Shown here: positions 3 through 6,899 of the stretch, one piece after another | Position numbering within the stretch: position 1 is the stretch's first letter | How the letters are laid out: every line of letters begins with the position of its first letter | Sequence record: MF158044 | DNA: 64,000 nucleotides | Direction: 5' to 3' (one strand) | Source: Shigella phage Sf18 | Translations under genes and position numbers: made by a program | Notes under the pieces: generated by a model | Seen by the model: the letters and a program-made list of their open reading frames with translations, nothing else | The model's database searches: none | Told to the model about the DNA's origin: nothing

Positions 3-860
3 ATGTTTAAAAAGATTGAAAACTTTTATGAGAAAACATTGGACGAAAGAACTGTAACTCAATTCAAAGATAAGTTTATTTACACAAGTCTATTGAAATC
101 TATCACAGATGAGTTACAATTATTAGAGGATATCAGTAATCAGTTATATACTGAAAGAAATATTCGTGTAGGTGTTGGCACACAACTTGATAACATCGGG
201 GCTTTGATTAAAGTCCCTAGACCTATTGGTGCTGATGATGACACTTACAGAGCTATCCTCTACATTCAAATTTTCTTAAGACGTTCTGACACCACACCAA
301 GCTTCTTACAAAGAGCTGTTATGACTCTTTACAACGCATCATTCAGCCAGATTTTTGAGCACATTACGCCAATGACTGGTGGAATTGTTATCCGTGTAAA
401 CACTCGTAATAACGTGTTAGATACAGCATACACACTTTCTAAGATTGCTGCAACAACTATTGGTTCAGCAGTTATCCTTAGAGATGTTACCTTAAATGGT
501 ACTGCTTGGACTCCTGTAGAGGTTGCTGATTCATCTCTGGCAATTACTGATGAGAACAATAACTGGTTTGTAACAAACACTAACAAGGGTCTTATTACGA
601 ACAACACAGGTGGCTCTCTAGAAGCAAATAAATTAGGTAGTTTTGCAGATGCAGGTGTAAGGGATGGTTATGTAAGAGTGGATAAAACTGGTGGAAGTAC
701 CAGTAAAGATTATTTAAAAGTCAGCAAAACAAACAATAGCAACGACTATTTCATTGCTGGTAAAGAAACAGTAGCAGGTGGTGATTATGGGATTATGGCA
801 GAAGTCGCCCAAATCGTCAAAGGCAGAAAAGATAAATCTCAACAAGAAGGAAGTTCATAA
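3..860 (+). CDS. tail/baseplate-associated structural protein (possibly 5'-truncated at window edge)
   Basis: 285-aa ORF opening 2 nt from window start, directly upstream of two tail-fibre genes; no catalytic motifs; call by synteny only. Confidence 0.35.
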
Positions 861-1161: not shown

Positions 1162-2337
1162 ATGCCAGTAGGTGAAATTCAAATTAGTGCATTGCCTCAA
1201 GCCTCGTTGCCTATTGATTTAAGTGATATCTTTCACCTTAAGCAAGGTATTGAGGATAAACGATGCACACTTGAGCAATTACTTGCTCCACACGCATCTT
1301 TAAGAAATAACCCACACGGTGTTACAAAGGTTCACGTAGAACTTGGTAATGTTGTTAACGCACTCCAATTAGTGGCTGCTAATAACTTGTCAGACGTGGT
1401 TAGTGTTGAAGAGGCTAGGCAGAACCTTAATATTCTATCAAGTGATGAAGTTAATGCTCTTATCCAGAATCACATTAATGACAAGAATAACCCTCACAAC
1501 ACTAACAAGATTCAAGTAGGTTTGTCTAATATTCAAAACTGGACATATTCAAACTCTTACTCTGAAGACGCTGATAAGTATGCTACTGCAAAAGCTGTGA
1601 ATGCTTTATATAGAGCTATCCAGAATAGCTATCCAATCGGTACTATTCATTTGTCAGTTAACCCTGCAAACCCATCTACATATTTACTTTGTGGTGGTAC
1701 TTGGGAGTTAGTTTCTAAAGGAAGGTCTCTTGTCGGTTATGACACAGATACAAGACCTGTAGAATCAGTATTTGGTTCTGCTACTGTAACACTTACACAA
1801 AATAACATTCCAAGTCACACACACTCTGTATTACTAACTGGTGGTGGACACTCCCACAATGCAACAGTAGTAATTTCTAACTTTGACTATGGGACTAAGA
1901 GCACATCAAGTTTTGATTATGGTTCTAAGGCCACAAACGACTCTGGAAGCCACGCTCATAACGTTAATGGTTCTGTAAGCAGTGCTGGTAGTCACAGCCA
2001 CAGGATTCCATTGAGGGGTTCTGACAGGGGTGGTGTGAATGCTATTACGGCAACGGCTGATGCAGGTGTTGGTAATGCGTCATATACAGACTTTGATGGG
2101 GTTCACACACATACCTTCAACGTTAATTCTTCAGTTGGTGGTAACCACTCTCACAGTGTGTATATCGGAGCACATGGACACAGTGTTGCAATTGGTTCAC
2201 ATGGACACTCAGGTACTGTGACAGTTCAATCTTCTGAGCACACTCACTCAGGTACAACTGGTGCATTTGGTGCTGGACAAGCATTTAATATTGAGCAACC
2301 TTCTTATGTTGTATATGTTTGGAAGAGAACTGCGTAA
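1162..2337 (+). CDS. tail fibre protein with His-x-His repeat tip
   Basis: Good SD (GGGAG); N-terminal NPHxxTK.QVGL repeats typical of phage fibres; C-terminal run of HxH motifs (HTHS, HSHN, HAHN, HSHR, HTHT, HSHS, HGHS, HGHS, HTHS); ends WKRTA. Confidence 0.65.
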   Translation: MPVGEIQISALPQASLPIDLSDIFHLKQGIEDKRCTLEQLLAPHASLRNNPHGVTKVHVELGNVVNALQLVAANNLSDVVSVEEARQNLNILSSDEVNALIQNHINDKNNPHNTNKIQVGLSNIQNWTYSNSYSEDADKYATAKAVNALYRAIQNSYPIGTIHLSVNPANPSTYLLCGGTWELVSKGRSLVGYDTDTRPVESVFGSATVTLTQNNIPSHTHSVLLTGGGHSHNATVVISNFDYGTKSTSSFDYGSKATNDSGSHAHNVNGSVSSAGSHSHRIPLRGSDRGGVNAITATADAGVGNASYTDFDGVHTHTFNVNSSVGGNHSHSVYIGAHGHSVAIGSHGHSGTVTVQSSEHTHSGTTGAFGAGQAFNIEQPSYVVYVWKRTA

Positions 2338-2382
2338 TTATTTTATAAGGGGCTACACAGCCCCTAGAAAGAGGATTTATAA

Positions 2383-4761
2383 ATGGCTGAATATAAGCTA
2401 AGTGAGCTAAACAGTATTGATACAGTTCGCTCAGAAGATTTACTTCACCTAAGAATTATCAAAAGGTCTGATATGCTAGGTGATGAAGACCGTAAAATGA
2501 CCTATGCAAATTTCCTTGCCTCTTTCAAACTAGAAAGATTCTTACAACTAACTGGTGGGGATATGACAGGGAATCTTGGCATCGTCAAATTAAGATACGG
2601 TGGAAAAGACTTATTAGACCCAACAGGTTCTTCTGAGGTTATTCTCGGTGACACTGCCAAGACCTTTAGAATTAATGCAAGTGCTTTAAGACTAACTGTA
2701 AATGATGCCACAAGGTCTGCAACAGTTTACCACACACTTAATAAACCATCTCCTAATGAATTAGGTATGAGAACTAACACTGAAAATGATGCAAGATATG
2801 CTATGAAAGAAACTGAAAATACTTTCTTGGCAAGACAAATCATTAATATCAACGGTGTTGGTTTAACACTTAAAAGTATCTTACCAGATGGTGGAGCATA
2901 TATTGAAGCAAGAGACTCAAATAATGCTTTGAGATTCACAGTTGGTAACTTGACTTCTGGTACTGATGTTACATTAGTTAACAGCAAAGGTGCTACGTTG
3001 ACTCTTGGTACAAACTCTGTTAGTGTTGACAAGAACTTTGAAATCAATGGTCAGGTTCAGCCTAATAACTGGAATAACCTTGATGCAAGATTCTTTACAC
3101 AGACTGCTGCTGACCAGAGATTTGCAAGACTTAATGCAAGTAATAACTTTGTTGGGGTTAACAACTTCAACGGGAAGACTTATGTTATTGCAGATAGTAA
3201 TGCACTTAACTTAAGAGCGGCTACAGAGAATGCTGCATTATTTATGCGTGGTTACAACAGTGCTGGGACAGGTGCTTGGTATGTGGGTCAACCAGATGGT
3301 ACGCAGTCTGAGATTGTTTTAGCAAACCAGATGACAAATGTTAACTTGAAAATTGCTACAGAGTTTTCATTTAACAAAGCTATCAACGTAACTGGTCAGG
3401 TAAAACCAAGTGACTTTGCAAACTTTGATACAAGATATGTTCCAAGCTCTTTAACGAACGTTCTTGCAAGAACTAATGCTGCAAACGTTTTTACTAACCC
3501 ACAAACTATTGTTACTACAGATGCTGCTTTCACATTGCAAAGTGGGACAGCTAATTCATCACTGTATATTGTTGGCGCTAATGCAGACGGCAACAGACGT
3601 TGGTATATTGGTAACGGTGAAGGCAGTAGGCCAAATTCTCTGTTCCTGTACAACTATTCAAGTGGTGGTGTACAGTTAGAAATTGCTGACACTTTCATGT
3701 TCAACAGAAGCGTATCAGTAACTGGTCAGGTTCAGCCTACAGATTGGACAAACTTCGACTCAAGATACTACACACAGTCTGCTGCAAACTCTAGATATAT
3801 GTTATCTGGTGTATCTGGAACTGGAACCGAAGTCGGTGATGCAACAGGTATTGCTTGGAATGCAAAAACAGGTTTGTACAATGTTACAAGTGCAAGTGGT
3901 GGTTCAACTCACTTAGTTTACCAAATGTACCTTGGAATTGGCGCATCCACACCTTCTGCACAGCTTAGGTTCGAATACAAAAATGGTGGAATCTACTATA
4001 GAACAGCAAGAGATAGTTTTGGCTTTGAAGAGTCTTGGGCTAAAATCTATACAGATAAGGCTAAGCCTACACCTTCTGAACTTGGTGCTTACACCAAGGC
4101 TGAAGTAGACCAACGTATTGCTTCTGCTGTAACTGATTCTACAGACCTCAAGAAAGTGTATCCAGTTGGTATTGTGACGTTCTTTGCTTCTAATGTCAAC
4201 CCAAATACAGCTTTCCCAGGCACTACTTGGACTTACTTGACAGAGGGTGCAAACAGAACCATTAGAATCGGTTCTGCAAATGGTTCCGATGTGAAAGGGC
4301 TTGGTGGTGCTGATACAGTTGCATTAAGTGTTGGTCATATCCCTGCGCACACTCACAGCTTCTCTGGAACAACCACTACCTTTGATTATGGAACTAAGTA
4401 CACAGACGCTCAAGGTGCTCACGACCATGACAGAGGTAACATGGAAATCTCTGGTGACTTTGGTTTCTTCAGAAGTGACGCAAACAGCTTTTATACAGCA
4501 AGTGGGGCGTTTGCTATCTCAGGTTCACAAGCCTCTAGAGGTTATACTGGTTCACAGTTCACTTATGGTACACCAGTTAACTTCTACGCATCAAGAACTT
4601 GGACAGGGAGAACAAGTTGGGTAGGTGCTCACGGTCACGGTGTAGGCATTGGTGCTCACAACCACACATTCAGTGGTAACACTGGTGCAACTGGTTCTGG
4701 TACAGCATTCAGTGTTCTTAACACTTACATTAAATTAATGGCTTGGGTAAGAACTGCATAA
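2383..4761 (+). CDS. long tail fibre protein
   Basis: 792 aa; GGDMTGNL motif; three internal repeats of (V/N)(T)GQV.P.D..NFD.RY; C-terminal HxH block (HTHS, HDHD, HGHG, HNHT); ends WVRTA like preceding gene. Confidence 0.7.
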   Translation: MAEYKLSELNSIDTVRSEDLLHLRIIKRSDMLGDEDRKMTYANFLASFKLERFLQLTGGDMTGNLGIVKLRYGGKDLLDPTGSSEVILGDTAKTFRINASALRLTVNDATRSATVYHTLNKPSPNELGMRTNTENDARYAMKETENTFLARQIININGVGLTLKSILPDGGAYIEARDSNNALRFTVGNLTSGTDVTLVNSKGATLTLGTNSVSVDKNFEINGQVQPNNWNNLDARFFTQTAADQRFARLNASNNFVGVNNFNGKTYVIADSNALNLRAATENAALFMRGYNSAGTGAWYVGQPDGTQSEIVLANQMTNVNLKIATEFSFNKAINVTGQVKPSDFANFDTRYVPSSLTNVLARTNAANVFTNPQTIVTTDAAFTLQSGTANSSLYIVGANADGNRRWYIGNGEGSRPNSLFLYNYSSGGVQLEIADTFMFNRSVSVTGQVQPTDWTNFDSRYYTQSAANSRYMLSGVSGTGTEVGDATGIAWNAKTGLYNVTSASGGSTHLVYQMYLGIGASTPSAQLRFEYKNGGIYYRTARDSFGFEESWAKIYTDKAKPTPSELGAYTKAEVDQRIASAVTDSTDLKKVYPVGIVTFFASNVNPNTAFPGTTWTYLTEGANRTIRIGSANGSDVKGLGGADTVALSVGHIPAHTHSFSGTTTTFDYGTKYTDAQGAHDHDRGNMEISGDFGFFRSDANSFYTASGAFAISGSQASRGYTGSQFTYGTPVNFYASRTWTGRTSWVGAHGHGVGIGAHNHTFSGNTGATGSGTAFSVLNTYIKLMAWVRTA

Positions 4762-4847: not shown

Positions 4848-5042
4848 ATGCCAACCATTCTAGCAATCCTCATGAAAAACCTTGGGGCATTCTTTTGGAA
4901 GCTTCTTTTTTCTCTTCTCAGTGAATACATGATTGAAAAAGTGTTCTTTAAGCTTGCAAGATACCTTGCGAGTAAAACAGATACACCTATTGATGATGAA
5001 TTTGTAGATACCTTGGAAAAGGCTTTTAAAGGTGAGAAATAA
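4848..5042 (+). CDS. small membrane protein
   Basis: 64 aa, hydrophobic N-terminal half, SD AAGGTG upstream. Confidence 0.35.
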   Translation: MPTILAILMKNLGAFFWKLLFSLLSEYMIEKVFFKLARYLASKTDTPIDDEFVDTLEKAFKGEK

Positions 5043-5416
5043 TGAAGTGGCTTGAAGATGCTTTTAAGAATAATATTGGTGCAATCGTTGTAGGTATTTT
5101 CAGTGTAATTGGTATGTACACTACAATGCAGGTCTCTGATGGTAAACAGGAAGTGTCTATCACAAATAAGTTACAACAGTTGGATGGTTACTCAAAAGGT
5201 AACTATTCAGCTATTCGTGACTTACAATCTGATATGAAGCTCCTACAATTAGGGATGGAGAACCAGAAAGTTCAGCTAGAGAATGTTAAGGGAGAAAACG
5301 CTAAGTTGACTAAGACCCTTGATAAGTTCTCTGACAGTGTTAACAACTTAGCACAATCTGTATCAGCTTTGCAAGCAATTACAGAACAAAATACCCAAAG
5401 CACTAAAAAGAAATAA
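5042..5416 (+). CDS. membrane-anchored coiled-coil protein
   Basis: 124 aa; N-terminal TM helix (IGAIVVGIFSVIGMY) then heptad-like polar region; ATGA overlap with upstream ORF. Confidence 0.4.
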   Translation: MKWLEDAFKNNIGAIVVGIFSVIGMYTTMQVSDGKQEVSITNKLQQLDGYSKGNYSAIRDLQSDMKLLQLGMENQKVQLENVKGENAKLTKTLDKFSDSVNNLAQSVSALQAITEQNTQSTKKK

Positions 5417-5452: not shown

Positions 5453-6352
5453 CTACTTACCTACTGATAAAGGTGCTTCAATCTTACCAGCATGTTTATA
5501 CCCTTTCAACCCACCTAGGAAGTCATCTGCTGTCATATGTCTCAAATCTTCAAGAGACTTTAAATCTTGATGAATTTCAAACTTAGGTGCTGGAAACTCT
5601 TCATTGCCAAGAAGCTGAAAAACCTGCGACATATGGTTCTGATAGATTTGAGTATCACCATAAGTCCCTACCAGATATCGCGGTGTATATCCCGTCAGTT
5701 TACACAACACCTCCAAGATAAAGGCATAGGAAGCAATGTTAAATGGTAACCCTAAGAACGTATCACAAGAGCGCTGATACCATTTCAAATCCACCTCATT
5801 AGTATTCGAGATGTAAATCTGAAAAAGTACATGGCAAGGTGCTAATGCCATATAGTTACTTGATATATCTGCTGCATTCCATGCGTTAACGAGCATGTAA
5901 CGGTCTGTAGGAGACTTTCTCATCTTCTCTACAAGATTACTCAACTGGTCTACAACAACTCCACCATGACCTTCGTAGGCTCTCCATTGGACTCCATAGA
6001 TTCTTCCTCCAGCGTCCTCCAGCCAATCATTCTCTGTAGCATAGGTTGTTTTCAACCAACGTTTAAAATCATCTGTCCAGATAGTCCAACGCTCTCCGTC
6101 GTTCTCTCCCCAAGTTCTGTAACGCAAATGGCCTAGTTGGTTTTCACCGTTCATAAACCATAATGCTTCACCGAGGACTTGACGCATAAATGTTTGTTTT
6201 GAGGTGATTAATGGAAATCCACTACGCATATCAAAACGGAACTCAGGTGGAGCAAAGGTCGAAATCACTGAGCCAGTTCTGGTTTTACGCAACTCACCAA
6301 CTGATAAAACATGGTTTAAAATAGCTTTGTAGCTTACATCTGCTTGTGACAT
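5453..6352 (-). CDS. thyA: thymidylate synthase
   Basis: 299 aa; conserved ThyA blocks (FPLIT.K, WNAADI, ALAPCH active-site Cys, DTFLGLPFNIASYA). Confidence 0.9.
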   Translation of the reverse strand: MSQADVSYKAILNHVLSVGELRKTRTGSVISTFAPPEFRFDMRSGFPLITSKQTFMRQVLGEALWFMNGENQLGHLRYRTWGENDGERWTIWTDDFKRWLKTTYATENDWLEDAGGRIYGVQWRAYEGHGGVVVDQLSNLVEKMRKSPTDRYMLVNAWNAADISSNYMALAPCHVLFQIYISNTNEVDLKWYQRSCDTFLGLPFNIASYAFILEVLCKLTGYTPRYLVGTYGDTQIYQNHMSQVFQLLGNEEFPAPKFEIHQDLKSLEDLRHMTADDFLGGLKGYKHAGKIEAPLSVGK

Positions 6353-6353
6353 A

Positions 6354-6899
6354 TTAGAAACGTCCTCTTACTTGTGGAACATAGGTATCAAAAACCACAG
6401 ACTCATCTTCTGAGGGTTTGGACTGTACTTTAGCAAATAATTCTGTGTCATACAAGTACTGGAAGAAACCCTCATAAGGTAGCTTGACAGTAGCCTCTTC
6501 AGTAACTTCCTTAATAACACTGTGGAAAACTACGTCAGCATACGGCAAAGCTGAGATTAAGATATTGGCTCCACCGATTACTAAAACATCTTCATCAATA
6601 GAGCTATCAATATACTTCAGGAAAGCCCCAAAAGCTTCAGGCTTAACTCTTGCTTTACAATGAGAGTCATCTTTAAAATCCAGACCATAAAAGTCAAGAG
6701 AGTTTGTCAAGACAATGTTCTCACGGTTTGGCAAAGGCTTGCTCCCAAGAGTCTTCCAAGTTTCGCTACCCATCAAGACTAACTGGTTAACAGTCTGCTT
6801 CTTAAACTCTGCCATATCTTGTTTATTACGAGGCCAAGGCATTCCAGTAGCTGTGCCAAACTCCCCGTTAATACCACTTGCAAAAATTAACTTAATCAT
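6354..6899 (-). CDS. dihydrofolate reductase
   Basis: 181 aa; DHFR-like N-terminus (IFASGINGEFG..GMPW) and GG dinucleotide-binding region (LVIGGANI); adjacent to thyA as in T4 td/frd. Confidence 0.75.
   Translation of the reverse strand: MIKLIFASGINGEFGTATGMPWPRNKQDMAEFKKQTVNQLVLMGSETWKTLGSKPLPNRENIVLTNSLDFYGLDFKDDSHCKARVKPEAFGAFLKYIDSSIDEDVLVIGGANILISALPYADVVFHSVIKEVTEEATVKLPYEGFFQYLYDTELFAKVQSKPSEDESVVFDTYVPQVRGRF

What the first reader, a model, noticed from the sequence alone, without database searches (positions are those of the whole stretch)
1162..4761. Two consecutive tail-fibre genes share a His-x-His repeat tip and a W-x-R-T-A terminus
Both fibres end with clustered HxH motifs (nine in the 391-aa protein, at least four in the 792-aa protein) and both terminate in W(K/V)RTA. 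HxH arrays coordinate metal ions in the T4 gp37 needle domain, so this is likely a metal-stabilised receptor-binding tip. The shared C-terminal module on two different shafts suggests module exchange or a duplicated tip with distinct specificities.
Basis: partly seen in the sequence, partly recalled or inferred. Interest (0 to 1): 0.4.

Follow-up and report, generated by a model that had tools for sequence, protein, structure and literature searches.

The report
Two phage fibres with gp37-type tips

Summary
Observation confirmed. The 391-aa ORF (1162-2337) has 9 HxH motifs, the 792-aa ORF (2383-4761) has exactly 4, and they end in WKRTA and WVRTA. The window is a Mooglevirus, 98% identical to Shigella phage Sf15/Sf13. 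The ORFs are Sf14 gp52 and gp53, the two virion fibres seen by cryo-EM.

Interpretation largely supported. The short fibre's C-terminus matches the solved T4 gp37 tip (2XGF) at E=9e-25. All seven Fe-coordinating HxH motifs of gp37 align with HxH in it, and it has two more. The long fibre's four align with four of the seven.

W-x-R-T-A is not special to these fibres. It is the last strand of the gp10/gp37 collar fold, into which the needle and head are inserted.

The two modules are old paralogues (28% identity), not a recent duplication. Exchange happens at the level of the head: heads 76-77% identical sit on short- and long-fibre scaffolds whose collars are about 37% identical. T4-like heads and the long fibre's 67-aa head also occur on other scaffolds.

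This architecture, including the HxH needle in both fibres, was published for the sister genus (Bas63, Sci Adv 2025) and equated there with Sf14 gp52/gp53. Metal binding itself remains inferred. Already known; low interest.

The parts
1162..2337 (+). Gene for the short tail fibre (391 aa; orthologue of Sf14 gp52 and Bas63 STF gp26)
   Evidence: ORF. 95-98% nt identity to Sf13/Sf14/Sf15 tail fibre genes. phrog_2097 tail fiber, E=6.6e-131. Sf14 gp52 is 391 aa, found in the virion by MS and docked as a 430 A fibre (PMC11821841).
1162..1617 (+). Short fibre aa 1-152: baseplate-binding N-terminus and short shaft, with two NNPH..TK.V.L.N repeats
   Evidence: 88-99% conserved among relatives. Repeats are visible in the translation. 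The role is taken from the Bas63 description of the N-terminal baseplate-binding domain.
1618..1815 (+). Short fibre aa 153-218: N-terminal part of the collar (Gp10_C-type) domain
   Evidence: Pfam PF21939 Gp10_C matches 155-390 onto profile positions 4-139 of 139, 63.7 bits against a cut-off of 27. Aligns to T4 gp10 and gp37 collars. AF2 pLDDT 84-92.
1816..2001 (+). Short fibre aa 219-280: ascending needle strand with 4 HxH (219, 230, 264, 278) and two FDYG(T/S)K units
   Evidence: HxH 219/264/278 are in register with gp37 883/915/929.
2002..2103 (+). Short fibre aa 281-314: head (spatial tip), putative receptor-binding cassette
   Evidence: Aligns to the gp37 tip region 932-959 (PMC6957217). 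Hypervariable in sequence and length (29-58 aa) among about 40 orthologues while the HxH count is conserved. 23% identity to Michonne against 91% for the N-terminus.
2104..2247 (+). Short fibre aa 315-362: descending needle strand with 5 HxH (315, 329, 338, 347, 360), including a tandem 27-nt HSVxIGxHG repeat
   Evidence: (repeat D7). HxH 315/329/338/347 are in register with gp37 966/980/989/998.
2248..2337 (+). Short fibre aa 363-391 plus stop: return strand that completes the collar fold, ending WKRTA
   Evidence: Matches the end of the Gp10_C profile. Aligns to T4 gp10 ...YITVYRWIRIA and gp37 ...NYIVRLA. W387 and R389 are invariant in 44 sequences. AF2 pLDDT 86-90.
2383..4761 (+). Gene for the long tail fibre (792 aa; orthologue of Sf14 gp53 and Bas63 LTF gp27)
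   Evidence: ORF. phrog_4277 tail fiber, 1341 bits, full length. Sf14 gp53 is 792 aa, found in the virion by MS and docked as a 630 A fibre.
2383..3807 (+). Long fibre aa 1-475: baseplate-binding N-terminus and shaft with three gp37_trimer (PF20744) repeats
   Evidence: Pfam PF20744, 3 stretches, E=1e-44. DNA repeats D1/D2 spaced 345 and 330 nt. The third repeat (aa 371-475) is a mosaic patch, 47% identical to ESh19 while the flanks are 98-100%.
3808..4143 (+). Long fibre aa 476-587: Mu S-fibre-like domain (Pfam gp37_C, PF12604)
   Evidence: Pfam E=1.3e-21. Matches 8JU3, Mu tail fibre S, at E=5e-22.
4144..4347 (+). Long fibre aa 588-655: N-terminal part of the collar (Gp10_C-type) domain
   Evidence: PF21939 matches 590-790 onto profile 3-138 of 139, 28.6 bits against a cut-off of 27. 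Aligns to A's collar.
4348..4428 (+). Long fibre aa 656-682: short ascending needle with 2 HxH (656, 680) and one FDYGTK unit
   Evidence: In register with gp37 883 and 915.
4429..4629 (+). Long fibre aa 683-749: enlarged 67-aa head cassette (RGNMEISG...ASRTWTGRTS), putative receptor-binding site
   Evidence: Unrelated to A's head (15% identity). The same cassette type occurs on an A-type scaffold (P0049) and on small fibres P0190, P0189 and P0205. 17% identity to Michonne against 83% for the N-terminus.
4630..4665 (+). Long fibre aa 750-761: short descending needle with 2 HxH (750, 759)
   Evidence: In register with gp37 980 and 989.
4666..4761 (+). Long fibre aa 762-792 plus stop: return strand completing the collar, ending WVRTA
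   Evidence...KLMAWVRTA is identical in the long-fibre homologues of alignment A5.

Best explanation
Genes 1162-2337 and 2383-4761 encode the short and long tail fibres of a Mooglevirus (Ounavirinae). Each presumably forms a homotrimer. Each ends in a T4 gp37-type receptor-binding module. In this module a gp10/gp37-type collar domain is interrupted by a long insertion. The chain runs outward as one strand of a six-stranded trimeric beta needle, forms a small head at the far end, and runs back, finishing with the last collar strand (W-x-R-T-A). Every HxH motif points two imidazoles into the three-fold axis, so three chains give a six-His octahedral metal site. By homology this predicts up to 9 stacked sites in the short fibre and 4 in the long one, against 7 Fe in T4. 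These sites rigidify the needle and are needed for folding. The head (aa 281-314 in the short fibre, aa 683-749 in the long one) is the variable, exchangeable cassette that contacts the receptor, probably LPS core for at least one fibre. The two heads are unrelated, so the phage carries two specificities. Shown here: homology, motif register, domain topology at the sequence level, head hypervariability and head exchange. Taken from the literature: virion location of both proteins. Inferred: trimer, metal binding and metal identity, and receptor contact by the heads.
For: Identity of the proteins: (Sf14 gp52/gp53, MS-confirmed, docked into cryo-EM density). Homology to the solved gp37 tip: E=9e-25; E=3.5e-5; profile, E=2.6e-24; A against gp37, 50% identity over 120 aa. 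Motif register: (7 of 7 gp37 Fe-site HxH aligned in A, 4 of 7 in B). Topology: the Gp10_C profile is matched end to end across the 155-390 and 590-790 spans, so the needle is an insertion; terminus aligned with gp10 and gp37. PMC6957217 says gp37 D11 is an insertion into collar D10, and that H929 and H931 are Fe ligands whose Ala substitutions abolish plaque formation. Same architecture in the sister genus: PMC12609058 describes collar, HxH needle and head in both STF and LTF of Bas63, with the chain doubling back, and equates them with Sf14 gp52/gp53. Head as specificity determinant: HxH count is conserved while heads vary. Regional identities are 17-23% in heads against 83-91% in N-termini versus Michonne. 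Heads 76-77% identical sit on scaffolds with 37-38% identical collars, against a background median of 18%. T4-like heads occur on both scaffold types. Receptor class: the Henu12 (97% to Sf15) resistant mutant lost adsorption and carries a waaH LPS-core insertion.
Against: No metal, trimer or receptor was tested. The AF2 monomer model is poor across the needle and head (pLDDT 40-59), and Foldseek gave no significant hit. T4 gp37 needs the chaperones gp38 and gp57A, but no gp38-like gene is in the window (best tblastn E=1.3), and the Sf14 authors found no Mu-type chaperone either, so folding may differ. The Sf14 paper suggested receptor contact may be more proximal than the tip. The Henu12 resistant mutant also carried an OmpC indel and other mutations, so LPS core as receptor is only suggestive.
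Confidence: 0.85

Rival explanations
1. The shared C-terminal module arose by a recent tandem duplication of one fibre tip within this phage lineage, followed by divergence.
For: The genes are adjacent and on the same strand, with the same module order: collar, FDYGTK, HxH, W-x-R-T-A.
Against: Identity is only 28%. A is more similar to T4 gp37 than to B (96 against 69 bits). No DNA similarity exists beyond 28-42-nt patches at 74-82%. Both fibres, with both modules, are present across Ounavirinae including Felixounavirus. B-type modules are closer to prophage fibres of Photorhabdus, Erwinia and Klebsiella (43-47%) than to A.
Confidence: 0.07
2. The HxH motifs are a repeat or compositional feature of a beta-structured fibre and do not bind metal in these proteins. 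Alternatively they bind a metal other than iron, for example Zn as in T4 gp12.
For: Metal was never measured for any Ounavirinae fibre; the Bas63 fibre density was too poor for side chains. From general knowledge, T4 gp12 uses an HxH (H445/H447) for Zn. One search places the gp12 HxH starting at H445 two alignment columns from the gp37 H929 column.
Against: All seven Fe-ligand motifs of gp37 are in register with A's motifs. In alignment A4, H347 and H349 are invariant and H219, H221, H317, H338 and H340 are at least 90% conserved, while the surrounding residues vary. HxH counts stay high across orthologues. The 'no metal' version is unlikely. 'A different metal' cannot be excluded and would not change the mechanism.
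Confidence: 0.08
3. The mid-module segment is not the distal tip. [quoted passage not shown]
For: A statement in PMC11821841 based on sequence position and their AlphaFold trimer.
Against: In T4 gp37, and in the Bas63 fibres, the chain doubles back at the head so that the mid-sequence segment is the spatial tip. The Gp10_C profile is split by the insertion. Variability and cassette exchange map to exactly this segment.
Confidence: 0.05

Closest known systems
Shigella phage Sf14 gp52 and gp53 (Mooglevirus; Subramanian et al., Commun Biol 2025, PMC11821841)
   Same: Orthologues: same lengths (391 and 792 aa), same gene order, 95% nt identity over the region. Both are virion fibres of about 430 and 630 A.
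   Different: Essentially nothing at the protein level. That paper did not mention the HxH arrays in the fibres (it discusses HxH and iron only for the central needle gp47), and it read the gp37/C24-like segment as lying mid-fibre.
Escherichia phage Bas63 STF gp26 and LTF gp27 (Felixounavirus; Sci Adv 2025, PMC12609058)
   Same: Same two-fibre system and the same C-terminal collar, HxH needle and head module in both fibres. The chain doubles back and the tips are hypervariable.
   Different: Motif counts differ: Bas63 has 7 (STF) and 6 (LTF, one of them HHxH), while this phage has 9 and 4. The long fibre here carries a larger 67-aa head on a shorter needle.
T4 gp37 receptor-binding tip (PDB 2XGF; Bartual et al. 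2010)
   Same: Homologous collar, needle and head. All 7 Fe-site HxH are in register with the short fibre, FDYGTK units are shared, and the terminal collar strand is homologous.
   Different: The collar here is of the Gp10_C type ending W-x-R-T-A, whereas gp37 ends IVRLA. There are two extra HxH layers in A and three fewer in B. The heads are unrelated. The module sits on a single-protein fibre attached directly to a simple Mu-like baseplate. No gp38-like chaperone is found in the window.
T4 gp10 C-terminal domain (PDB 2FKK; Pfam PF21939)
   Same: Best Pfam match for both collars. The terminus ...VYRWIRIA is very like ...VYVWKRTA.
   Different: gp10 has only a short insertion with no HxH array, and it is a baseplate protein rather than a receptor-binding fibre.
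T4 gp12 short tail fibre (collar plus head with one Zn bound by H445/H447)
   Same: Same collar superfamily. It has one HxH metal site, and it plays the 'short fibre' role alongside a long fibre.
   Different: Only 16% identity in alignment A1. It has a single site rather than an array, and a different head.

Membership tests
T4 gp37-type receptor-binding tip (collar-needle-head, 2XGF) | Significant sequence similarity to gp37 residues about 800-1026 | tested here: met
   A: E=9e-25 and BLASTP E=8e-28. B: E=3.5e-5 alone. A profile of B-type modules: E=2.6e-24.
T4 gp37-type receptor-binding tip (collar-needle-head, 2XGF) | HxH motifs in register with the seven Fe-coordinating HxH of gp37 | tested here: met
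   gp37 883/915/929/966/980/989/998 correspond to A 219/264/278/315/329/338/347. B 656/680/750/759 correspond to gp37 883/915/980/989 (on alignment A1).
T4 gp37-type receptor-binding tip (collar-needle-head, 2XGF) | Needle and head are an insertion within the collar domain, and the C-terminal strand returns to the collar | tested here: met
   The Gp10_C profile is matched from position 4 to 139 across A155-390, and from 3 to 138 across B590-790. The terminus aligns with the gp10 and gp37 termini. This is a sequence-level test only; the 3D topology of the needle was not resolved.
T4 gp37-type receptor-binding tip (collar-needle-head, 2XGF) | Intertwined homotrimer with a six-stranded needle and octahedral His6 metal (Fe) sites | not testable with these tools
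   Only monomer AF2 is available. The needle and head came out at pLDDT 40-59, and Foldseek was not significant.
T4 gp37-type receptor-binding tip (collar-needle-head, 2XGF) | Hypervariable head that determines the receptor | tested here: inconclusive
   Hypervariability and cassette exchange are shown. Receptor binding by the head was not tested.
T4 gp37-type receptor-binding tip (collar-needle-head, 2XGF) | Dependence on the gp38 and gp57A chaperones | tested here: inconclusive
   There is no gp38-like sequence in the 64-kb window (best tblastn E=1.3). The rest of the roughly 88-kb genome and gp57A were not examined. The Sf14 authors report no homologues of the Mu tail fibre chaperones gp50/gp51.
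Pfam PF21939 Gp10_C | Score above the curated gathering threshold (27 bits) | tested here: met
   A scores 63.7 bits. B scores 28.6 bits, which is marginal.
Pfam PF07484 Phage tail collar domain | Pfam match to the Collar model | tested here: not met
   PF07484 is not among the matches at E<=1 for either protein. It is present in more distant homologues such as P0066-P0120.
Ounavirinae short and long tail fibre pair (Sf14 gp52/gp53, Bas63 gp26/gp27) | Orthology, length, and gene order wedge-(99-aa ORF)-STF-LTF | tested here: met
   95-98% nt identity to the Sf13/14/15/17 fibre genes. The flanking genes are the same in ESh19, Silverhawkium and Michonne. Lengths are 391 and 792 aa, as in Sf14.

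The most novel reading that the evidence does not exclude
The 67-residue head of the long fibre (RG.MEI.G ... ASGAF ... ASRTW.G.TS) is a distinct receptor-binding head family with no solved structure, mounted on a gp37-type needle cut down to four metal layers. Heads of this and other types are portable cassettes. They move between the short- and long-fibre scaffolds of Ounavirinae, T4-like long fibres and small prophage or tailocin-like fibres, always recombining at the flanking HxH layers, with needle length (4 to about 11 layers) varying independently. If so, the HxH layers would be natural, predictable splice points for engineering host range in this whole fibre superfamily.
Probability: 0.4. 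Interest if true: 0.35.

Novelty: already known. Interest (0 to 1): 0.15.

Why it matters
It matters little as a discovery. These are published virion proteins, and the collar, HxH needle and head design of both Ounavirinae fibres is already in the literature. There is some practical value. The sequence-level map (collar, ascending HxH, head, descending HxH, return strand) gives exact boundaries for head swapping in Shigella and E. coli therapeutic phages. It also corrects the impression that the gp37/C24-like segment lies mid-fibre. The evidence that identical heads occur on both fibre scaffolds suggests host range in this subfamily evolves by shuffling head cassettes between the two fibres.

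Tried and rejected
1. AF2 monomer model of the short fibre with a 44-sequence alignment. Only the collar and the terminal strand were confident; the needle and head were unusable, as expected for an intertwined trimer. The Foldseek PDB search gave no hit below E=1e-3. The top weak hits were gp10 entries and C24 6OV6, consistent but not evidence.

2. The idea that the long fibre lost two His pairs by mutation to Arg/Asp near the head. Rejected: alignment A5 shows the junction H.H.RG.MEI.G conserved in P0049 and P0190, so it is a different head cassette on a shorter needle.

3. Recent duplication or gene conversion between the two genes. Rejected: only 28-42-nt patches at 74-82% identity.

4. 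Search for a T4 gp38-like chaperone in the window: nothing (best E=1.3). The two small downstream ORFs match only PHROG families of unknown function, and the 124-aa one is annotated as a putative holin in relatives.

5. NCBIfam: no family for either protein.

6. The automatic 'tip' extraction failed for full-length T4 gp37. The T4 rows there are meaningless, so T4 comparisons rest.

7. L002 never reached the script machine, so gp10 and gp12 were handled through align_proteins.

8. A second structure job, for the long fibre's module, was not run because a monomer model would be equally uninformative.
Full report
**1. What is there**

Window 1162-2337 (+) encodes a 391-aa protein (A) and 2383-4761 (+) a 792-aa protein (B).
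- A carries 9 HxH motifs (residues 219, 230, 264, 278, 315, 329, 338, 347, 360). These use 18 of its 25 histidines.
- B carries exactly 4 (656, 680, 750, 759).
- Shuffling each protein reached these counts in 0 of 20000 and 1 of 20000 trials.
- A ends VYVWKRTA and B ends LMAWVRTA.
- The C-terminal regions align (A153-391 with B589-792, 28% identity, E=9e-17).

**2. Whose genes these are**

The 3.6-kb region is 94-98% identical to Shigella and Escherichia phages Sf15, ESh20, Sf13, KPS64, Sf17, Sf14 and 3HA14, and more distantly related to Citrobacter phages Michonne and Mordin. All are Mooglevirus, subfamily Ounavirinae, and both genes are annotated as tail fibres.

The Sf14 structure paper (PMC11821841) identifies the orthologues as gp52 (391 aa) and gp53 (792 aa). 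Both were detected in virions by mass spectrometry and docked into cryo-EM density as two sets of fibres of about 430 A and 630 A. That paper discusses HxH and iron only for the central needle gp47, not for the fibres.

**3. What the C-terminal module is**

- Pfam places a Gp10_C domain (PF21939) over A155-390 and B590-790. In both cases it matches essentially the whole 139-position profile across a span far longer than the profile. The domain is therefore split by a large insertion.
- Against solved structures, A146-363 matches the T4 gp37 receptor-binding tip 2XGF at E=9e-25, with long identical runs (TSSFDYG.K.TN..G.H.H; HSHSV.IGAH.H.VAIGSHGH).
- B matches 2XGF at E=3.5e-5 on its own. A profile of B-type modules matches at E=2.6e-24.
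- In one alignment with the T4 proteins (columns tabulated), the seven needle HxH of gp37 (883, 915, 929, 966, 980, 989, 998) share columns with A 219, 264, 278, 315, 329, 338 and 347.
- A has two additional motifs (230 and 360) at the collar-proximal end.
- B's four motifs share columns with gp37 883, 915, 980 and 989.

[quoted passage not shown] It also states that D11 (882-1009) is an insertion into D10, subdivided into a stem (882-931 and 960-1009) and a tip subdomain. Seven Fe ions are coordinated along the needle, and Ala substitutions at H929 and H931 abolish plaque formation (PMC6957217).

The interpretation as a metal-stabilised, gp37-type tip is supported by homology.

**4. The W-x-R-T-A terminus**

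T4 gp10 ends ...IQPYITVYRWIRIA and gp37 ends ...AFNYIVRLA. Both align with ...IEQPSYVVYVWKRTA in A and ...NTYIKLMAWVRTA in B.
- In 44 A-type and related sequences, the W and R are invariant.
- Among 118 homologues of the B module, the termini are WYRSA (41), WKRTA (27), WVRTA (8), WYRTA (8), WARVA (8) and others.

The terminus is thus the last beta strand of the collar fold, reached after the chain has returned from the head. It is a hallmark of the whole superfamily rather than of these two tips.

**5. Already described**

The cryo-EM study of Felixounavirus Bas63 (PMC12609058) reports the following for its 430-A STF (gp26) and 630-A LTF (gp27).
- The chain doubles back at the head, giving a six-stranded needle.
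- The STF has seven di-His motifs and the LTF six.
- Both tips are the most variable parts.
- The domain organisation is identical to Sf14 gp53 and gp52.

The finding is therefore known biology. What differs here is only the count (9 and 4) and the type of head.

**6. What I could add**

(a) *Conserved needle, variable head.* Across about 40 A-type orthologues, the HxH number is conserved, typically 9 as 4 ascending plus 5 descending. The segment between them is hypervariable in sequence and length, 29-58 aa. Against Citrobacter phage Michonne, the heads are 17-23% identical while the N-termini are 83-91% identical. Michonne-type short fibres also have four or five FD(Y/H)G.K units instead of two, so needle length varies by repeat units.

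(b) *Heads are exchanged between scaffolds.*
- P0014 (A-type) and P0128 (B-type collar, ending AWVRTA) have heads 77% identical, with collars 37% identical.
- P0025 (A-type) and P0126 (B-type, Escherichia phage REP7) have heads 76% identical, with collars 38% identical.
- The background median for head pairs is 18% and the 95th percentile 29%.
- The P0025 and P0126 heads are the T4 gp37 head (YIEAWNGTG.GG...SSYA.SYR.GG). P0025 is 50% identical to gp37 over 218 aa, and almost identical across the head.

(c) *The long fibre's head.* The 67-aa head of B (DRGNMEISG...ASRTWTGRTS) is a separate cassette type. It also occurs on an A-type scaffold (P0049: 56% identical to A overall, with a B-type head) and on small fibres P0190, P0189 and P0205. 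Most B-type modules have 3+3 HxH; this phage has 2+2 flanking the larger head.

(d) *The two heads differ.* The two heads in this phage are unrelated (15% identity), consistent with two specificities.

(e) *Not a recent duplication.* A is closer to T4 gp37 (96 bits) than to B (69 bits). DNA similarity between the genes is limited to 28-42-nt patches. The B module is 43-47% identical to fibres of Photorhabdus, Erwinia, Klebsiella and Pragia prophage-like elements with different shafts.

**7. Mechanism (inferred)**

Each fibre presumably trimerises. Three ascending and three descending strands form the needle. Each HxH layer gives six imidazoles to one axial metal ion, predicting up to 9 sites in the short fibre and 4 in the long one. 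The head at the far end contacts the receptor.

For a close relative (Henu12, 97% to Sf15), loss of adsorption accompanied an insertion in waaH, an LPS inner-core gene, although the mutant also had an OmpC indel and other changes. The Sf14 authors propose outer-core LPS for at least one fibre. Which fibre binds what is unknown.

The Sf14 paper remarks that the C24/gp37-like domain lies in the centre of the fibre rather than at the tip. That is most simply a consequence of reading linear sequence. Because the chain folds back, the mid-module segment is the spatial tip.

**8. Limits**

- Metal binding, trimer geometry and receptor contact were not testable.
- The monomer AF2 model was confident only for the collar and terminal strand, and its fold search was not significant.
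- No T4 gp38-like chaperone is present in the window, but only 64 kb of a roughly 88-kb genome was examined, and gp57A was not tested.

**9. Verdict**

The W-x-R-T-A motif is better read as the collar's closing strand, 'duplication' as ancient paralogy, and 'module exchange' as head-cassette exchange. The architecture is already published for this subfamily and these orthologues. Novelty: already known. Interest: low (0.15).

Noticed in passing
window 3-860 and 860-1159: The 285-aa ORF (phrog_4017 baseplate protein; weak DUF2612) has the same length as Bas63 'wedge 1'. The 99-aa ORF (phrog_4141, unknown function) sits immediately upstream of the two fibre genes, where the Bas63 gene numbering (wedge 1 gp24, LTF-platform gp25, STF gp26, LTF gp27) places the small T4 gp9-like LTF platform, and where Sf14 has gp51 ('homolog of T4 gp11?', not detected by MS). 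This assignment rests on gene order only.
   Followed up: partly
window 3493-3807 (long fibre aa 371-475): The third gp37_trimer repeat of the long-fibre shaft is a mosaic patch. It is 47% identical to phage ESh19, while the flanking parts of the same protein are 98-100% identical. This suggests recombination inside the shaft, as the Bas63 authors noted for LTF beta-helix repeats.
   Followed up: partly
window 1306-1359 and 1486-1539 (short fibre aa 49-66 and 109-126): There are two copies of the motif NNPH..TK.(H/Q)V.L.N..N in the short-fibre shaft, probably the 'triple alpha helix and turn' units described for Bas63 fibres.
   Followed up: no
window 4848-5042 and 5042-5416: Two small ORFs (64 and 124 aa, hydrophobic N-termini) follow the fibre genes. 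They match only PHROG families of unknown function, and the 124-aa one is annotated 'putative holin' in Michonne and Silverhawkium. No tail fibre chaperone gene follows the fibres, unlike T4 (gp38) or Mu. Thymidylate synthase and dihydrofolate reductase follow on the opposite strand (5453-6899).
   Followed up: partly
L005 2695-6288 (Shigella phage vB_SflM_004, MK295205.1): The two fibre genes are annotated as five fragments, probably because of frameshift errors. The last fragment (P0121) has a head that looks chimeric between the T4-like head (WNGTGAGGSKMSS) and the B-type head (ASRTWTGRTS).
   Followed up: no
P0189 (Providencia rettgeri record): A fibre homologue with a B-type 66-aa head is named 'histidine kinase, partial' in its source. 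This is probably a misannotation.
   Followed up: no
L006 2501-3709 and 3755-6115 (Citrobacter phage Michonne): The short-fibre orthologue has four or five FD(Y/H)G.K units (402 aa). The long-fibre orthologue has 7 HxH with an ordinary head of about 35 aa, instead of 4 HxH with a 67-aa head. So needle length and head type differ between the Shigella- and Citrobacter-infecting members of the same genus.
   Followed up: partly
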